64,000 bases of DNA, from contig NC_092350.1 of assembly GCF_963676685.1 (NCBI RefSeq), positions 44,764,001 to 44,828,000 of the forward strand, given 5' to 3'. The notes beneath the pieces are model-generated. The model worked only from the letters and a program-made list of their open reading frames with translations. It had not been told where the DNA came from and made no database searches. This document shows, in pieces, positions 11,179 to 25,519 of this stretch (position 1 is its first letter; the number at the start of each line of letters is the position of its first letter). A program made the translations under genes and the position numbers. This DNA is from Mytilus edulis (lineage: Eukaryota).

Positions 11179-11476
11179 TGACGTGACATGTCGGACAGTT
11201 TTAAACAATTATGCCATATTTGTTGTCACGTAAATGGGCGAAGCAGTTCATTTAGGACAGTTGGCTCTCACTTTTTTTTACAAACTTCAGACACTGTATT
11301 TGATTGGTCACTTGAAGTTTACATCGCCTCCATTCGTGGTATTGCTAATGTTCCCATTGCGTCACGAATTAAATAGAAAAAAATCTATAAATATTGAAAA
11401 ATCTAAATTAATCGTTCACTTACTTCTGAACTTGGATCTACTAAGAAAGACTAATTCTTTTCCTGAAAAGGTAGGA
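11179..11476 (+). promoter_or_regulatory. Candidate Pol II promoter and non-coding first exon (~11418-11470), possibly of the neuropeptide gene
   Basis: CRE-like TGACGTGA (11179), GTCACGTA (11225) and TTGCGTCA (11357); ATTGG (11303); TATAAATA (11386); Inr-like TCACTT ~31 nt later; donor AAG|GTAGGA at 11471. The first coding exon starts at an acceptor, so an upstream exon must exist. Confidence 0.45.
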
Positions 11477-16000: not shown

Positions 16001-17441
16001 TAGAACAAATATAAAAGCATTCCTGTTTATAGAAGCCATCACGAGCATTTTATTTCCTGGATTTTTAGACAGTGACACTCATAGATTTAATATCACCAAA
16101 AGTTCTCTAAATAACATGGCCGCATTAAGACATGACGAAAACAACTACTGACCAGGTTTCTGTTTGTGGACAGGCTTATTCATACTTAAATTATATTTAG
16201 TTATGTATTGCACGATCAAGTTTGTGCTTTAGTTTTAGTCTTTGCTTTTATGTAAATAACAACGGCCATACTTTTTCTTTCCTCTTACAATGACAGTGGA
16301 AGAATAATCGAAGCAATTAAAACATTACACTTTTTTTTTTGAATTTTGTAATAAATTAGTTAAACTAGCTTAACGGTTTCAGTTGATATATCTATATTTT
16401 TTTTAAAGAATTCCCAAAAATGTTTGTCTTGTAATTATTTTTCCATGCATGGGTTTATCTGACTGAAGTTTCCAAATATTGTTTGCAATGTTACTCTGTA
16501 GCAGTTAAGGGTGCAACTGGTATGATCAGTACCCATATTTTGAACTACAATCCATTTTAAAGAATATATGACTAACTGCTGTCTACGTGTCATTCTAATG
16601 CACCATTACATCAATGTAAAAACTGCGTAATAGTACACAATATCTTCTACTTACATTGATAAAATATTGATCTATGTATTCTTTCATAAAAAAAATTATA
16701 AAGACAAATTCTCTTATACCAGACAACTAGACTTTTCTGGTAAGTGAAACAATGTCAATGCAAACAAATATCAGCGAGAATTTTGTTATTTACTGTTAAT
16801 ATATTTCAAATATTTTCATCTTTAGATATAATTTTACTAAAAGCATTCTTAATTGGTTAAGTAAGAAGCATTGCGGAAGTCGTTGATCTTTAATATACTA
16901 CTAAATAAAGTCATAATATAAAAACTTGAAAGATGAATACAAGTTTTAACATTTTCAAGTTGTAAAAAGGCAAACAAATAATAGAAGACTATATTATTGT
17001 TTCGTATTCTGTCCATGCTAAAAAGTGTACATTGTTTTCCTGGTTTTATTCATCCATAGTTGTTTTTCAGTTGTTACAAATTAAAAACGGCGGTTGAAGT
17101 TGTTTTCGAACATGGGAACATTAATCTCTCTATATACTTTGGCTTCCGTATTATAACGGTGGATGAGGCATATACTTTAAGATCAGATTCCATAACAACT
17201 TAAATGGACTTTTAAATATTGAAAAAAGAACTAAAAAACAATGATATTTGTGACAGATATACAGAGTTTGCAGCTAATATTTGTCGCCATCGTAACATTT
17301 TATTTTTATCACTTGTATCTCAATTACCATGTACGTCAATGAATAAACATAGTATACATCAATACTGAAATTGTCATAAATCACAGTAACAGTTATTTGG
17401 TTACTACTTGAAGGTATATATTTTTGTCGATCTTTTTGCAG

Positions 17442-17539
17442 ATGAACATGAAGCAAAATACAACAAGTATAATTGTAGCAGTAACGATATTATTAGCATG
17501 TGTAGTACAAGCAAGATATACAGATGATGACTTAGATCG
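17442..17539 (+). CDS. Shared exon: signal peptide and short acidic pro-region (MNMKQNTTSIIVAVTILLACVVQA-RYTDDDLD(R))
   Basis: Acceptor tttttgcag immediately before the ATG; hydrophobic core ending in VQA; donor CG|GTACGT, phase 2. Confidence 0.9.
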
Positions 17540-20500
17540 GTACGTTTTGTTTTTATATTTGTGTATGTGTTTTTCAGTATGTAATTTTTGTTTTCGTCGG
17601 TATTCAGTTTTTTTATAGACATGTTCGTGTATATGTGGGTATTCACTTTTCACATTGATTGTATGCGTACCTTAACTATGCGTGGATATGTTGTCCTGTA
17701 ATAGACTTCTCCTTGTTTTCTTTTGTTGCAGTTTTCTTTCCGAAATGAACACATTTGGTGAAATCGAAGACTTCATATCCAAGCGCGTGTTTCGTAGTCG
17801 CTTTGAAATATTCGATTACTTTTCAAAGATCCTAAATACCTTTCTTTCTTTCTTTATTCATGTCTGGAGTACACATTATACATTTACGATTCAATATTCT
17901 GTATATATGTACAGACATATTATGAACACTTTCGAAATATTTTTATAAAGCAAGATCGAAAAAAAGGATTTAAACTTTTTGATATATTTAACAGATATTG
18001 CAAGGCTGCCCCTTTGAAAGATTATAGAAAAAAATTGGATGTCTGTCAAATCTTAGATTTTTACTCCCTTTTTTGTATTTTATATTTTTCACAACAATGA
18101 ATGTTGATATTTTAATCATTGAGAGAATATTTTTAAAATAGAGTTGAAAAAGTAACGTTTACTGCCAGCATGTGAAAAGTCCATTTTATAAGACATCTGA
18201 ATGAAACGCAAGACATTTTGGGATTTTGTCACCTGTTTGGCATGCAGCGTACTCAGTTAATATACATTGACACAAAAACATATTCATTTATAAAAAGCAA
18301 AATGAGGACAATACATTATAATTTTCTTATTATATAAGCTACTCAAAGCGCAGTCCGCGCTCAAGCGATTCCAATTCACATATATATGGATTACCAAACC
18401 CATGTTTGAAAAAAGCGAGACTTGCATGTAAACCTGATATTCTTGATGAGTGTTTATATGAAGGAAAGTCTTCAGCAATATATGTGAGTAATGTTAATTC
18501 GAATCTACGCTCTCCTGTCTCCTGTGAAACATTGCATTGCATACATTATACATCGGGTTTGATGGAACGTTGATTTGTCTAAATCTTACCCATTTTACCT
18601 TTTCTATTGTCAGTTTTTATTTATCAATCAAATGTGTTATTTGTTTGTTCTCGTCCCTTAAATAATAGATTTAAATTTTATTTTTATTTCAAAGTTTGTT
18701 GCCGTTTTTGCGTTTTTTGTTTGTTAGTGTGAAGTTTCCCTCAGCCTTCAATTTCAAACTATACTTATTTTTACTTTTTCGTAGCGATTTTTTGATAGAA
18801 ATATTTAAATTTTGAAGTCTGTGTATATTTTACACAATTTATTTATGGTAGAAATAAAGCAATTGTTTCATACCATTAAAATACACCAACAATATTCAAA
18901 CGACAGCAAGCAGATGCACAGAAATGATATTCTTCTTAGTTGAAAACAACTTTTCCAAGTCATTCTCGAACATGCTCTCATCCATCAGTTTTCAACACGG
19001 TTCATGAATAACCTCTTAAATTGAAAAGACGTTTTTCATTCAGCAAAATAACTGTGTGAATCTTCTATCTGGAATTAATATCAAAAAGCTGTCGACATTA
19101 TCTATGAAGTATTTCTTTTTGATACTATTTCCGGTTTGTTTGGAATGGAAATATTCAATATTTGTCAATTGATGTTAAACCTTCTCATTACGCGTTAGGA
19201 GTAAAAAATCAAATACTTCGACGTAACATAAGCCTTTACTAATGCCTTTCCTAGAAAATTCCTTTATACTAATTTATTTGATTTTGTCTGTTAAGATTTA
19301 TATTATCAATCTCAATTTGTTAATTTGAAATCAATTTATCCATACTTTGCGACGAAGCATTTCTGTAATTGTTTACTATTTGAAGATTAAATTACCGTTC
19401 CTCTTTTCATAAGTGCAGTAAAATTGCGGCAGATCATCGCTTTTTCACAGCCACTTTAAACTTGATGCTTCTTCAGTACCGATTGGTTGTTTTATTTATT
19501 CACCAATTAAAGTTAGAAAATTTATTAGATTTGGTTTGCTTCTTTGTTACACAATAAGAATAATCAGCTTCCTACAAGATGATTCGAGAAAAACGACTAA
19601 GCTTTTCAAAACATAGTTTTTTATACAATGTCAAACAAATTATATTAATAGAAATGACAACACAGCATAAAAGTAACAACAATGATTGCATTTGATTACT
19701 TTAATGCTAATAAAACTCTGTACAGAAATGTTTAATAATTGAAGACAAAAATCGTTACAATATGATAGCGTCATAACATATTGTTTAAAATCACTTAGAA
19801 TTCAAATGCTCATATATTTCAAATCTTTTCCATCTAATATTATAGGAAAGAGAGGTTTTAAACGCCAACTATGGATAAATTATACTTTCCCCGCCTTGTT
19901 CTATTTTCTATTTTGAGAAAGAAGATTTTTATAATGTCAGGAGAGTACAGAGAACTGTTATATGATTATTTGATATCATTCTACTATGTACTTTAATCAA
20001 AGCTATATGTTTTAATGCATTGAAAGTCTGCGTTCAAACTAAGATGTATGCAAATTGTTCGAAACAATTCATGCAATATTTTTTTCTGAACAAATCCATC
20101 TAAAAGATCTACTTTTTGAGGACATACCACATTTTGACCGCATTTTCCTCGGTAGATTTCAGTTAATGATTCAAAAAGTTACCAAAGGTTTTCTCAGCAA
20201 CGACTTCATTTTGTTTGATACAGCTACATTTGGACAGTACTTACATTATTTACCTTTAAAATACCCATTTCCCAATTATAACAATAAACCGATCTCGCAT
20301 TTTCTCTCAGAATTTCCTGATATAAATTTTCTGAAGTGAAAAGAAAGCTGTTGAATTAAAGTTTGTAAATCTGCTTTCAAAATCGGAATATATTCGGGAA
20401 TTTACCAAACAACCGCAAAAGAAAAGACTAAATAATTTGAAATTCTTTTGATAATATAATTCTTTATGTATATGTATGCTTCTTGGCTTTACAAAAATAT

Positions 20501-23500
20501 CGACTCCTGCCCATGAGAAGAGAACTCGCAAATCAATAAGTTTGGCCATAATTCTCTTAATGAAAGTCCTGTAATAATTGGACATGTGTACGCTGTCCTC
20601 CAATATGGCGGCAAAAGATAGAAAAGCTCGAAACCTTATCCCTCAATGGGTTTTTTTTCATTACTTGTGTTAAATGTCATGTTTTACCATAATACACAAA
20701 CAGTAGTAGACAGGAAGAAACGACTTTACGTCTTTTCGATGAGATTAGGAATTGTGTCCTACGACAGTTATCCGTTTAAGTGTAGACTTTTCTACGCGAA
20801 TATCTGTTTGTATGTATATATGTGTGTGTTTTCATGTTATATGTTTGTGACTGTGTTTTCAGTGTTAAACGTCAAATGGCCGATGCAAAGGCCTCTGAGT
20901 ATCTAGCCCTGATCAGACTGGGCCTAGCCAGTGGGTGTCGAGAGATAGGGTGCGGCCTGATTGATTTTCACACCAGGTACAACAAAATGTACGTGTTGTT
21001 TCGTCCAAGTAACGTAACGTCAAGTGAAGTGGTATATATGATGGAATGATATATACTATGATATAACCATTATAATATAATATATATATATATTGATATC
21101 TAGCATGAAACAGTATATGCATTAATATTTATATATTTTAATATTTATCAATGAAAATTTGCAATATAATCTTATGTTACACAGTCCAACTTGTAAATGC
21201 GCCATTTCCTACAATATATGAAATATTTGTTAACATTGACGAACCCAATTAATAAAATTTTTTCACAAGTTGGACTATGTAGGCTTTTTATTGGCATGCT
21301 GACACACATGCTTTTAATTTAGTTCAAGAATGATCATAAGTTTAAACGATATATTGAGCAGAACATTGAAACAGAACTTAAAACGTGACAATAATGAAGG
21401 ATAAACCAATGAAAGTTAATAATATTTTTGTTTATTTAACTCATTTAGAGATCAAAAAGCCTTTGACTAGCGTAGAATGAGTTAAGCGTTACCCCATATT
21501 TACTGACTTTTAATTTATGAATTGACTAATTCAAAATTACAATCAAAATAATCTCCAATTATAAGACAGTAATTGCTCATATATTTTGAAATTCAAAACT
21601 TTCAAAATATTATGATCATCATTAGGTTATTCAACCAATAGATACAATCGTCACTTTCGAATTAGAATCTTAAGAAGAAAAAACCAAGCAGGTGATATTT
21701 AGAATGTTTATTCATTCATGATCATCTACTGGGTTGTAACCTATCTTAATCGTCTCTTTTGACATTCATGATCGGACCATTTCAACTTCATTGATGTAAC
21801 GTTTTTAAACTCTGCTCGATAAAACTCCGTTTATTTATTATTTTGCATGATGTTATGTTATATAACGAAGAGGTGGTTTAGAAAGAAAAAAAAAGAAATA
21901 ATTGAAAAAATAATGAGAGAAATTTATCTAAAATCTAAGAAGAAAATAAAACCATTTCTTCCTCTGTGTTATGTATGCTAATATATGCATGTTGCTACTA
22001 CCTTTCACTCACAGGTTTGCCAAGAGGTCATGGTCAGATCAACGTATAGCCGATTATCAAGCCAGACTGGCATTATACCAAGGACGACCTTTACTATCGC
22101 ATGGTCAGTTTGACACAAATAAAATGTAGGTATCAATTTATTTATATTGCAGAAATGACGATGCTTTGCTGCAGCGTTTCCAGGCTCATTTGCATGCTCT
22201 TCCATTTCTTTATGTCATAGAATACTTGATATGCGGGTTCGTTTAAAAAAAATATGGTACATGTGTTTAGGCTCGATACTTACCAAATTGTACCAAATAT
22301 GCAACAGGTATCAAATTTTTATCAACTTCTTAAGGCATAAATACAATGTCATCTTCATATTTATCAATTACTGACCAAGAAGCCGTACATTAACGTATTC
22401 TATGACACAGCACACCATCCCCAATTGCAGCTTCAATGCACTTATAATCTTCCTGGGCATAAACCGCATGCTTGATTTACTACAGATTTGAAAAGCGGAC
22501 GTCTTCAGACCAAAGAATTGCTGAACTTCAGGCGCTGATTGCGTTGTCGCGAGGTAGTGGTATAGTTGGGCATGGCAGAATTGACCCATATGGCATGTAG
22601 GTATCTCTGCAAAATTCGGTCAGGCTTTACGGATGTTTTCTGCATTCAGGTATCTCTGTTATATCCAATCCAGAATCGCTTGATACATCTAGCATGACGC
22701 TATCAATACTGGTAACACTTGCTATTAATAAGGCAGCGAGATAAAGTGTGTTCTTACAGAAACAAAATATTCTATTTCTATGAAGGAGTTAAAGAGAAAA
22801 ACAAGTGCTTAGCTACGTTTTTTCCTCCGAAGAAAAACGAACAAACAAATAAAGCAAAACGATTCATGCTTGAAAAAAACTAACATCGAAACATGCATAT
22901 ACATTTATTATGAATCAAACAAAAACATTTTAAATCTTCTATATTTGAATATAATCCCGAATATTTCATGCAATATCTCTGACAATGTCTGATGAACAAT
23001 AATGCTATAGAAGAACGTCATGGACTATAAGCAGAGAGGAATTCGTTACTTTTAAAAGAGCACTGTTATTTGTAAAACACAATTTACAAAATGTTACCAA
23101 ATGAGTTACAGACATGCGCACATGTTCATTATATGGCCTTACAATATTAGTCTTTCTCTTTGACACATTCTGTTATTGTTCATGCTTATTAGTGAGCTAC
23201 GTAAAATGCGCAAAACTGAACATATTTCTGCTTTACAACGTTAACGTCACAAAATTAAATCATTCTGCATTTATGATTCTTATTCTGCTGTTGTTCAGCG
23301 AAATGTTCATACAAAATTGCAACTGATGTCAGCGATATGGATTCAACTGCAGTGTTCTCATTACTTCAGTTTGTTTTGCACATAAGTGCGCAGACAGCAG
23401 TGCACTCACTTGCTAGAAAATAATACGTTACGACAAGCAAACCATCTCCTAGTATACATTACTTGGTATACTAGAAATTGCTTATTAGAAGAAACAAAAT

Positions 23501-24174
23501 TAATTTAAAAGCAAAAGTAATTGGAAAATTAAATTAATTGCAAATATCTATATTTAATTGAGATACATAATATAAATAGACCATTATACCAAAAAGAACG
23601 CTGCAGCTTTATACACATTTAAAGAGACCACGTCCACAGTGCTAAGAAAATGAGTACGCGTTCATTGCTTAAAAATATACAGGTATTACAAAAGGTTCAG
23701 CTCACAAAAGCGATACTCAGAGTGTCCTCCATAGAATTCTTGAATTTTTCTTTACAACTATTGTGCTAATTTTTCAAAACCTCATTGGTAGGCGAAAGCT
23801 TCGTCATTGATCGCTTTGCTTGTCGTCGTTAGAAAAAAGGACAAAAAAAAACACAAAAGACAAGAAACGTACTGCAAATACACAGTTAGTTAAACACTTT
23901 TAATCTATCAATATAGAACCGATACATCAATTTCAAAGGAATAAAAAAAAAAAAAATTGATCAAGTATATTGAAAATAAATTAAAATGATTCATGCAAAA
24001 TTAAATTGTGTTTCTAACTATCCAAACACCCATATGTGCGCAATCCAAATTTTTCTGATGCATTTCTTTTTTCATTCCTTTCACAGTGGTAGAAGGAAAA
24101 GAGATACTGGAATACTCAGAACACTCATAAACAAAAACAGACTTTTGCAAAATTCTGACGACAGCCATTTATGA
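17442..24174 (+). CDS. PTH-like (iPTH/PXXXamide-type) neuropeptide precursor gene with three alternative mature-peptide exons; isoforms of 99/98/98 aa
   Basis: Join 17442-17539 + [20863-20976 or 22015-22125 or 22486-22596] + 24087-24174. All junctions are GT-AG and phase 2. Each join gives an open frame with a signal peptide, KR site, homologous peptide and GRRKR. Confidence 0.9.
20863..20976 (+). CDS. Cassette exon A: (R)VKR-QMADAKASEYLALIRLGLASGCREIGCGLIDFHT(S), 35-aa Cys-pair peptide
   Basis: Acceptor gttttcag|T; donor CAG|GTACAA; 114 nt; creates an RVKR furin-type site. Confidence 0.88.
22015..22125 (+). CDS. Cassette exon B: (R)FAKR-SWSDQRIADYQARLALYQGRPLLSHGQFDTNK(I), 33-aa peptide
   Basis: Acceptor cctttcactcacag|G; donor AT|GTAGGT; 111 nt; SDQRIA and HGxxD motifs; not in the ORF track. 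Confidence 0.88.
22486..22596 (+). CDS. Cassette exon C: (R)FEKR-TSSDQRIAELQALIALSRGSGIVGHGRIDPYG(I), 33-aa canonical PXXXamide/iPTH-type peptide
   Basis: Acceptor tttactacag|A; donor AT|GTAGGT; 111 nt; SDQRxAEL..L.AL and GxGxxDPxxI-G-RR signature; not in the ORF track. Confidence 0.92.
24087..24174 (+). CDS. Shared terminal coding exon: GRRKR amidation/cleavage signal plus C-terminal peptide DTGILRTLINKNRLLQNSDDSHL*
   Basis: Strong polypyrimidine acceptor tttcttttttcattcctttcacag|T GGT AGA AGG AAA AGA; stop TGA at 24172-24174. Confidence 0.9.
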
Positions 24175-25519
24175 TCTGATAAATTTGTAAGTATATTTTG
24201 TAAATTATCAAATTGACTCATCTTCTTGTCTTCTATTATTGCGATGAATAGCTGTATCTTTAGTATATGCATTCTCGCACTTAAAACATTTGAAAAAAAT
24301 CTTGGAGGTTTCTACAATTCCAAGTTTCTGTCCTTACTTGATATACCTTTTATATAGTGCAGGACTGCTGAGGATTTATACCTGCTCTCCCGTCAATCCA
24401 CGATACAGAAACTACTATGTGAACATAATTCATTCTTCAATAGAGAAAAAAACAAAACAAGTGTTACATGGCATGTACAGAGCATCCAAAGATGGGATCG
24501 AACTCTCTCTCTATATATATATTCAACATCTGATGAATTAGAAATGCATACAGTTTGGTAATGCGCATGCTGTATAAGTGTTTCCTTATTGTTAACCAAA
24601 GTTACCCAACTCATGACTTTCGAATATATGACCTTATTCCCTTAGCTTCATTGATTACGTGATACTCATCATGGAAAGTGTCACATAACACCAAATTACA
24701 TAGAAACTAATAAAAAAAAAATCAAAATTATATGAAATGTATGTAAATATGTATTTTTTTGTTTATAATATCAACCACGTTTGTTTCAGGTAGATTTATC
24801 CGTCCAAAGAGCTTTCGTAGTCATCTAAATTTCTGTGGAATAATGAAGCTTCAAAAACAATTACGGACAATCAATTTCCGGAATCAAATTTACTTTATTT
24901 TTGTTTCGTCTCAGGAAATCTAGCTGCGCTAGACGTCTTGCTATTTATTTTGTTTATTTATTATATTTTGACGAAAATGTGATATTAAACGTGAGGCACT
25001 TTGCCTGTTTATATTGTGTATATCTGATAAGAATGGTTGAGATTTTGAGTACGTAAATAAATGGATCCATTTATTGCAATTTATGACTATGCTTTAATCT
25101 TGTTTTGTACCTGACCAGACACACAAATTCAGAAAGGTCACAGAATATTTTACCACCTTTGATTTAGATAGCTGTAAAAGCTAGTTTTACAAAGATTCCA
25201 AAATCCTAATATGCAGCTACATAAATGCATTGGAGTAGTAAAACAAATCAAAACAAGAACTCTCTTTCAACTTGTTTTAAAGCTGTTTCGAAGACAACTG
25301 CGAAAAAAACACATTTCCACAAATCAAATCTTTTCATTAACACATTGATGATACATCATAATTTTTGAACGGACATTGCACAAAGTTATACTTTTCTGTC
25401 TATGGTGTCTTCTTACTAAACCATTGAATGTATACTGATTGACACTTTAGTTTGGTGAACTTGATTTATTTGTTACTGCATTTGAACTAGATTCTAGTAA
25501 TTTCAAGTACGTCTGCAAA

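What the first reader, a model, noticed from the sequence alone, without database searches (positions are those of the whole stretch)
20863..20976. Cassette A is a disulfide-looped, pyroglutamyl variant of the PTH-like scaffold
Seen: exon A keeps the helix pattern (ADAKASEYLALIRL versus SDQRIAELQALIAL) and the GxGxID tail. It gains C-REIG-C (Cys22/Cys27, the second Cys replacing the His of GHG) and an N-terminal Gln, and loses the Pro of PXXX (DFHTS). Inference: it is the oldest duplicate and may target a different receptor. It may also link Cys-pair lophotrochozoan peptides catalogued as a separate family to PXXXamide as splice products of one locus. My recollection that similar Cys-pair peptides resemble cone-snail hormone-like toxins is unverified.
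Basis: partly seen in the sequence, partly recalled or inferred. Interest (0 to 1): 0.7.

Follow-up and report, generated by a model that had tools for sequence, protein, structure and literature searches.

The report
Mussel QSamide hormone exon, two tails
This is the mussel copy of a known shellfish-and-worm peptide exon (QSamide) in a gene that splices out several related, likely hormone peptides, as already published for the oyster; the one small extra is that mussel RNA cuts this exon at two points, giving two different predicted peptide tails.

Summary
The exon is real and spliced. Gln1, Cys22/Cys27, the helix pattern and the missing Pro are as described, but none of it is new. Cassette A is the QSamide (QSGamide) exon of a mussel QSamide/PXXXamide (iPTH-like) gene. 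The same A-B-C layout and the 'two families, one spliced locus' link were published for the oyster in 2021 (PMC8398477). QSGamide-iPTH orthology was also published in 2021 (PMC8557429). One correction: exon A has two donors 12 nt apart. One at 20976 gives ...DFHTS-amide (2 of 8 runs); one at 20988 gives ...DFHTRYNKI-amide (5 of 8 runs), plus an A+B form in one run. Both tails already exist as unannotated Mytilus gene models. 'Oldest duplicate' holds as the first split, not as the ancestral form. A different receptor is plausible but untested. The cone-snail link found no support.

The parts
11448..11470 (+). 3' end of an upstream 5'-leader exon (its start was not mapped); donor AAG|GTAGGA
   Evidence: loose read ends before 17440 match here exactly, 0 expected by chance
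17442..17539 (+). shared exon: start codon, hydrophobic signal-peptide-like stretch and short acidic spacer; phase-2 donor
   Evidence: joints to A, B and C; N-terminus of P0001
20863..20976 (+). cassette A, short form: KR site + QSamide peptide, 35 aa ending DFHTS before G-RRKR
   Evidence: joint 20976->24087 in X6 and X11; isoform found verbatim in P0002
20863..20988 (+). cassette A, long form through the second donor: 39 aa ending DFHTRYNKI before G-RRKR, or 41 aa without an amide donor when joined to B
   Evidence: joint 20988->24087 in X1, X24, X4, X9, X6; joint 20988->22015 in X9; verbatim in P0086 and P0001
20936..20953 (+). C22-x4-C27 motif (predicted intramolecular disulfide loop)
   Evidence: sequence; conservation counts; the disulfide itself is inferred
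22015..22125 (+). cassette B, PXXX-type peptide ending DTNKI (positional orthologue of oyster PYKIamide)
22486..22596 (+). cassette C, PXXXamide/iPTH-type peptide ending DPYGI (positional orthologue of oyster PALIamide)
24087..24186 (+). shared exon giving the last base of the peptide's final codon, G-RRKR (amide donor and cleavage site), a 23-aa C-terminal piece and the stop at 24172-24174
24790..25083 (+). 3' UTR exon, with a second acceptor at 24794; a poly(A)-like loose end follows 25083 in one contig

Best explanation
Cassette A is the spliced QSamide exon of a mussel QSamide/PXXXamide gene; it encodes a predicted secreted, pyroglutamyl, disulfide-looped, amidated peptide that likely signals through a PTH-receptor-like (cluster B) class B GPCR. 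Shown: one signal exon is spliced to A, B or C, and these to a shared exon that supplies Gly-Arg-Arg-Lys-Arg. All cassette junctions are phase 2 and all cassette lengths are multiples of 3. A has two donors of similar consensus match (6/9 and 7/9), so it yields a 35-mer ending Ser, a 39-mer ending Lys-Ile, or, when joined to B, a 41-mer with no amide donor followed by peptide B. Inferred from standard neuropeptide processing: signal peptidase, convertase cuts at KR and RRKR, PAM amidation from the Gly, Gln1 cyclisation to pyroglutamate, and a Cys22-Cys27 bond that closes the loop after the N-terminal helix. Inferred history: an iPTH-type exon was duplicated before molluscs, annelids, nemerteans and phoronids split. 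One copy gained the Cys pair (QS type); the PXXX copy duplicated again in mussel/oyster/scallop bivalves (B, C); mytilids added the second donor. Whether A uses a different cluster-B receptor from B and C is untested; I put it at about even odds or slightly above (0.55).
For: Splice joints. Identical isoforms among Mytilus gene models. The A profile gave 51 hits among 6538 candidates, one named QSamide in UniRef (P0049). C-x4-C in 53 of 53 distinct QS cassettes versus 0 of 42 PXXX cassettes, classed by the helix start and not by Cys; 19 of 19 QS cassettes in precursors retrieved with the Cys-free B/C profile. QS versus PXXX hhalign probability 95.1, E 3e-8; 0 of 100 column shuffles reached the score. 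QS and PXXX fall on two sides of one branch, 100/97, and 95 with the Cys/His positions masked. The oyster gene has the same order and shared exons, with mature peptides detected by MS. Two more QS exons lie on the same contig, as oyster QSamide1/2 lie on the same chromosome. iPTH/PXXXamide activates PTH-like receptors in beetle and tick. Molluscs have four cluster-B sub-clusters.
Against: No peptide-level data for the mussel: disulfide, pyroglutamate and amide are predicted only. The AlphaFold model gives a helix over model residues 2-25 (peptide residues up to about 19) but leaves the Cys region unstructured at low confidence (mean pLDDT 67.5, pTM 0.39), so it does not show the loop. No QS-type peptide has a receptor in the papers read; PMC8557429 says the assay is still to be done. 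Tick iPTH activates two receptors about equally, so receptor number need not track ligand type. The counts are not independent species, gastropods dominate, and the A-profile hits are biased towards Cys. One Lottia cassette with C-x5-C spacing was missed by my classifier. The tree has 38 columns, an unsettled bootstrap and long branches, and does not place mussel B with oyster/scallop B. Seven of the 8 runs laid are contigs whose RNA status is a guess.
Confidence: 0.85

Rival explanations
1. A, B and C are near-equivalent ligands of the same PTH-like receptor(s); the Cys loop and pyroglutamate only add stability, and splicing sets tissue and timing. This rivals only the 'different receptor' step.
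For: The N-terminal helix, which is the activating part in class B ligands (own knowledge), is alignable across both types. Tick iPTH shows EC50 62.6 and 51.6 nM on two receptors. A and B can be made from one transcript.
Against: The two types have stayed distinct in one locus from annelids and phoronids to molluscs with fixed differences: Cys pair 53/53 versus 0/42; His 0/53 versus 41/42. Cluster-B receptors expanded in molluscs.
Confidence: 0.4
2. The long A tail is splicing noise from a neighbouring GT, tolerated because it keeps the frame; it makes no functionally different peptide.
For: A 12-nt shift keeps the frame automatically. Both donors are mediocre matches. DNA likeness of the extension to B's end is modest in an AT-rich genome (by eye, 7 of 11 bases). 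33 of 34 amidated QS tails among stored proteins end in Ser.
Against: The long donor is the one seen in more runs (5 of 8) and the only one joined to the last exon in X1, X4, X9 and X24. Both coexist in X6. Three unnamed relatives with 76-83% identical exons keep R-Y-[NR]-K-M-Y in genomic read-through, which fixes the GT of the second donor. A brachiopod QS peptide also ends in K-I.
Confidence: 0.45
3. Cassette A belongs to, or is the template of, a cone-snail hormone-like toxin family.
For: Only the general fact that cone snails recruit Cys-bearing neuropeptides.
Against: None of the five DREP families matches by description; the Medial DREP has N-terminal Cys pairs and a different sequence. 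The terms QSG, QSamide, PTH/iPTH, PXXX and parathyroid occur 0 times in the main text of the 2025 Conus doppelganger survey and of the 2026 review. No Conus-labelled entry appears among the 51 and 43 hits, though many hits are unnamed.
Confidence: 0.05

Closest known systems
Cragi-QSamide3 of the oyster QSamide3/PXXXamide gene (PMC8398477)
   Same: First cassette after a shared signal exon; Gln start, C-x4-C-G-x-x-D, Ser-amide; followed by SWSDQR- and TSSDQR-type cassettes and a shared GRRKR exon; QS+PYKI co-inclusion isoform; two extra QS genes on the same chromosome.
   Different: Mussel A has a second donor that gives a 4-residue-longer Lys-Ile-amide tail, not among the oyster isoforms in the supplement alignment. 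The helix sequence is closer to the common A-E-Y-L-A type than oyster QSamide3 is. The two mussel stand-alone QS exons start with His.
QSGamide / QS peptide family (Platynereis QSGa, PMC3890597; scallop QSamide, PMC5996578; QSGamide/iPTH set in PMC8557429)
   Same: All sequence hallmarks; Capitella P0081 carries an almost identical Cys loop and tail, and the same QS+PXXX tandem.
   Different: Only the optional long tail.
PXXXamide / insect iPTH (PMC7224569; tick preprint 10.64898/2026.06.22.733765)
   Same: Homologous helix and G-x-x-D tail, amidation signal, same locus.
   Different: A lacks S-D-Q-R, the His of G-H-G and Pro at -4, and has the Cys pair. Receptor activation is shown only for the arthropod PXXX type. 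iPTH has under 12% identity to vertebrate PTH, so 'PTH-like' refers to the receptor.

Membership tests
QSamide (QSGamide) | N-terminal Gln right after a dibasic site | tested here: met
   KR|Q at 20867-20875; 51 of 53 distinct QS cassettes
QSamide (QSGamide) | C-x4-C-G-x-x-D motif | tested here: met
   C22/C27; 53 of 53 distinct QS cassettes
QSamide (QSGamide) | C-terminal Ser followed by Gly and basic residues | tested here: met
   met by the short isoform (joint in X6 and X11; P0002); the long isoform ends Ile-Gly instead (P0086)
QSamide (QSGamide) | Sequence homology to named members and same locus position as oyster QSamide3 | tested here: met
   profile hit to P0049 named QSamide, E 3.4e-9; exon order matches the oyster alignment
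QSamide (QSGamide) | Mature peptide with disulfide, pyroglutamate and amide in tissue | not testable with these tools
   MS detection is reported for oyster and scallop members; the modifications are in figures that I could not see
PXXXamide / iPTH (narrow sense) | Pro at position -4 | tested here: not met
   Phe (short) or Tyr (long); Pro is in 35 of 42 PXXX and 2 of 53 QS cassettes, and is only mildly conserved even in iPTH
PXXXamide / iPTH (narrow sense) | S/A-D-Q-R start and His-Gly before the tail | tested here: not met
   A has A-D-A-K and Cys-Gly
QSGamide/iPTH superfamily (broad sense) | Profile homology to the PXXX type and shared precursor exons | tested here: met
   hhalign E 3e-8, 0 of 100 shuffles; shared exons by joints
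QSGamide/iPTH superfamily (broad sense) | Activates a PTH-like cluster-B class B GPCR | not testable with these tools
   shown for beetle and tick iPTH only; stated as not yet done for lophotrochozoans in 2021
Cone-snail doppelganger toxin / DREP families | Match to a described family, with a venom-gland-expressed counterpart | tested here: inconclusive
   no match in descriptions or term searches; venom transcriptomes and Data S1-S8 of PMC12621736 were not searched

The most novel reading that the evidence does not exclude
In mussels a 12-nt alternative donor works as a regulated tail switch. It swaps the QS-type Ser-amide for an Asn-Lys-Ile-amide tail like that of cassette B and makes a hybrid looped peptide with different selectivity among the expanded cluster-B receptors. 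One exon would then address two PTH-like signalling channels.
Probability: 0.15. Interest if true: 0.45.

Novelty: new member of a known kind. Interest (0 to 1): 0.16.

Why it matters
Modest. The family and its splicing link to PXXXamide are published, so the main claim is a rediscovery in a mussel. What remains useful is a corrected isoform list, with exact masses for peptidomics, and a defined set of ligands (A35, A39, A41, B, C) for deorphanising molluscan PTH-like cluster-B receptors. That was still open in the papers I could read. If the two A tails differ in receptor preference, it would be a neat example of ligand tuning by a tandem splice donor.

Tried and rejected
Cone-snail toxin link: see the rival explanations; not supported, and venom transcriptomes were not searchable here. 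P0008 was dropped before all counts as an acidic repeat protein matching only the G-C-G-I-V-D word; P0005 is the window itself and was not counted. Pfam: 0 families for 4 of 5 precursors, one sub-threshold CD225 hit on a signal peptide. PDB sequence search: only glycine N-methyltransferase at E 0.4-0.8, treated as chance. The AlphaFold model is uninformative on the disulfide; no fold search was run on a single helix. Run search listed no holder on record as RNA; splice joints were used instead. Runs X2 and X3 showed no joint for exon A, which is no evidence either way. Paper search was swamped by the abbreviation QSA and gave nothing. Monobasic cleavage at the Arg inside the long tail was considered and judged unlikely because there is no basic residue at -4, -6 or -8 (rule recalled, not tested). 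The idea that A is the ancestral form was rejected: the Daphnia member in the oyster alignment is of the Cys-free type, and the A profile found no arthropod-labelled hit (word-index search, weak evidence). No peptide-receptor complex was predicted: no mussel receptor sequence was in hand. Look-ups of earlier scan notes gave nothing on this family.

Full report
Observation. Position 20863 opens a phase-2 exon after a pyrimidine tract and CAG. It reads V-K-R, then a peptide with Gln1, Cys22 and Cys27 (codons 20936-20938 and 20951-20953). A window-wide filter for such exons returned only three, at 20863 (A), 22015 (B) and 22486 (C). A filter for an exon starting x-Gly-basic-basic past 20000 returned only 24087. 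A signal-peptide-like exon lies at 17442-17539, and a leader exon ends at 11470. Protein hits at 100% identity are named Mytilus edulis and M. galloprovincialis.

Splicing. I laid 8 of the 24 listed runs. Only X24 is on record as RNA (raw reads, about 19% read); the others are contigs, so depths are not expression levels. GT..AG joints link the signal exon to A, B and C, and each of these to 24087. Exon A has two donors. 20976->24087 appears in X6 and X11, which share identical low-depth contigs and substitution tallies and may be one library. 20988->24087 appears in X1, X4, X9, X6 and X24 (2 reads), from three studies. X9 also shows 20988->22015 (A+B). X2 and X3 show no A joint. The isoforms are therefore a 35-mer ending DFHTS, a 39-mer ending DFHTRYNKI, both followed by G-RRKR, and a 41-mer without an amide donor followed by B. 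All three stand verbatim in gene models P0002 (VDI22275.1), P0086 (VDI22277.1) and P0001 (XP_071121081.1). The donors match the consensus at 6/9 and 7/9. The cassettes are not strictly mutually exclusive.

Homologues. phmmer with A over 1.84 billion representatives gave 7 hits; one was the window itself and one a repeat protein that I dropped. A 7-row A profile gave 51 hits among 6538 candidates, across bivalves, gastropods, cephalopods and a chiton, including a scallop protein named QSamide. A 9-row Cys-free B/C profile gave 43 hits among 7996 scored. I classed cassettes by the residues after the first Asp/Glu, not by Cys. C-x4-C is in 53 of 53 distinct QS and 0 of 42 PXXX cassettes. His at the second-Cys position is in 0 of 53 and 41 of 42; Gln1 in 51 of 53 and 0 of 42; Pro at -4 in 2 of 53 and 35 of 42. 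In precursors found with the Cys-free profile, 19 of 19 QS cassettes have the pair. Caveats: rows are not independent, they include Mytilus itself, and a Lottia cassette with C-x5-C was missed by the classifier. Of 34 amidated QS tails among stored proteins, 33 end in Ser; the exception is the long Mytilus form. Profile-profile comparison gave probability 94.5, E 7.4e-8. With 53 versus 42 rows it gave 95.1, E 3e-8, score 32.9, against 9.4 for the reversed alignment and at most 15.6 in 100 column shuffles.

Age and direction. QS and PXXX cassettes lie on two sides of one branch (100/97; 97 rows, 38 columns, bootstrap not settled) and stay so with the Cys/His positions masked (SH-aLRT 95). Pairwise, B-C scores 80, A-C 34.5 and A-B 23.5. 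QS+PXXX tandems occur in Capitella, in Phoronis with all three splice forms, and in a nemertean; Lingula has both forms on shared ends. All 9 two-PXXX precursors among 43 hits are mussel, oyster or scallop. The tree itself does not resolve mussel B. So A split first; C is nearest to arthropod iPTH, and Cys gain in the QS line is the simpler reading. Against treating Gln as a QS gain: brachiopod PXXX-type peptides begin with Gln, and two further QS exons on the same contig (L003, E 8.3e-5; L005, E 4.6, recognised by motif and splice sites) begin with His.

Mechanism. Shown: exon choice and donor choice set the peptide and its tail; the shared exon supplies the Gly and basic residues. Inferred from general neuropeptide biology: secretion, convertase cleavage, amidation, pyroglutamate and the disulfide. 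AlphaFold predicts only the N-terminal helix. Inferred from orthology: a cluster-B receptor, as iPTH activates PTH-like receptors in beetle and tick and molluscs have four cluster-B sub-clusters. A distinct receptor for A is plausible from the long-kept differences but untested.

What is known, and what I saw of each paper. PMC8398477 (section 2.5.6 whole, other passages, the supplement's alignment as text; figures not seen) describes the oyster QSamide3/PXXXamide gene, its differential splicing, the common origin of the two families, and MS detection. PMC8557429 (passages and supplement part 26) states QSGamide-iPTH orthology and that receptor assays were lacking. PMC7224569, PMC5996578, PMC3890597, PMC6425005, PMC7200681 and the tick preprint: passages only. 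PMC10501145: parts 2-5 of 7 and two supplement passages. PMC12621736: term search and sections 4-5, supplements not read. PMC13311285: term counts only. The cuttlefish PXXXamide paper was not read. Searches for PXXXamide, QSamide, iPTH with mollusc terms from 2021 and bioRxiv from 2022 listed no paper on a QS receptor or on the mussel double donor. The library lacks most subscription papers, and bioRxiv supplements are closed, so either may be in print elsewhere.

Verdict. This is a real exon and a correct homology call, but a published family and a published locus design. The only residue of novelty is the second donor with its B-like tail, whose function is unknown. Interest 0.16; new member of a known kind.

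Noticed in passing
L003 (G000:C7:45022588-45022701, - strand) and L005 (G000:C7:44926070-44926171, + strand): Two more QS-type exons about 238 kb and 141 kb from cassette A, both phase 2 with C-x4-C-G and both starting with His instead of Gln; likely counterparts of oyster QSamide1/2. L005 is very divergent, with a short helix. Their other exons and expression were not checked.
   Followed up: partly
window 24186-24794: An intron lies in the 3' UTR 12 nt after the stop codon, with two acceptors 4 nt apart (24790, 24794), both used in reads.
   Followed up: no
window 22015-22125: Cassette B lacks the Pro of PXXX (DTNKI) and sits on a long branch, unlike oyster and scallop B peptides; its last three residues equal those of the long A tail.
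   Followed up: partly
runs X6 and X11 on window 17400-25200: Filed under different studies but sharing identical low-depth contigs and substitution tallies; treated as possibly one library.
   Followed up: no
P0007, P0009, P0010, P0079: Some gastropod and octopus gene models carry two QS cassettes in tandem, so the QS exon was also duplicated independently in those lineages.
   Followed up: no
window 21501 / 21888: A joint between opposite strands in 5 reads of X24 with only 21 letters on the short side; probably a repeat or library artefact.
   Followed up: no
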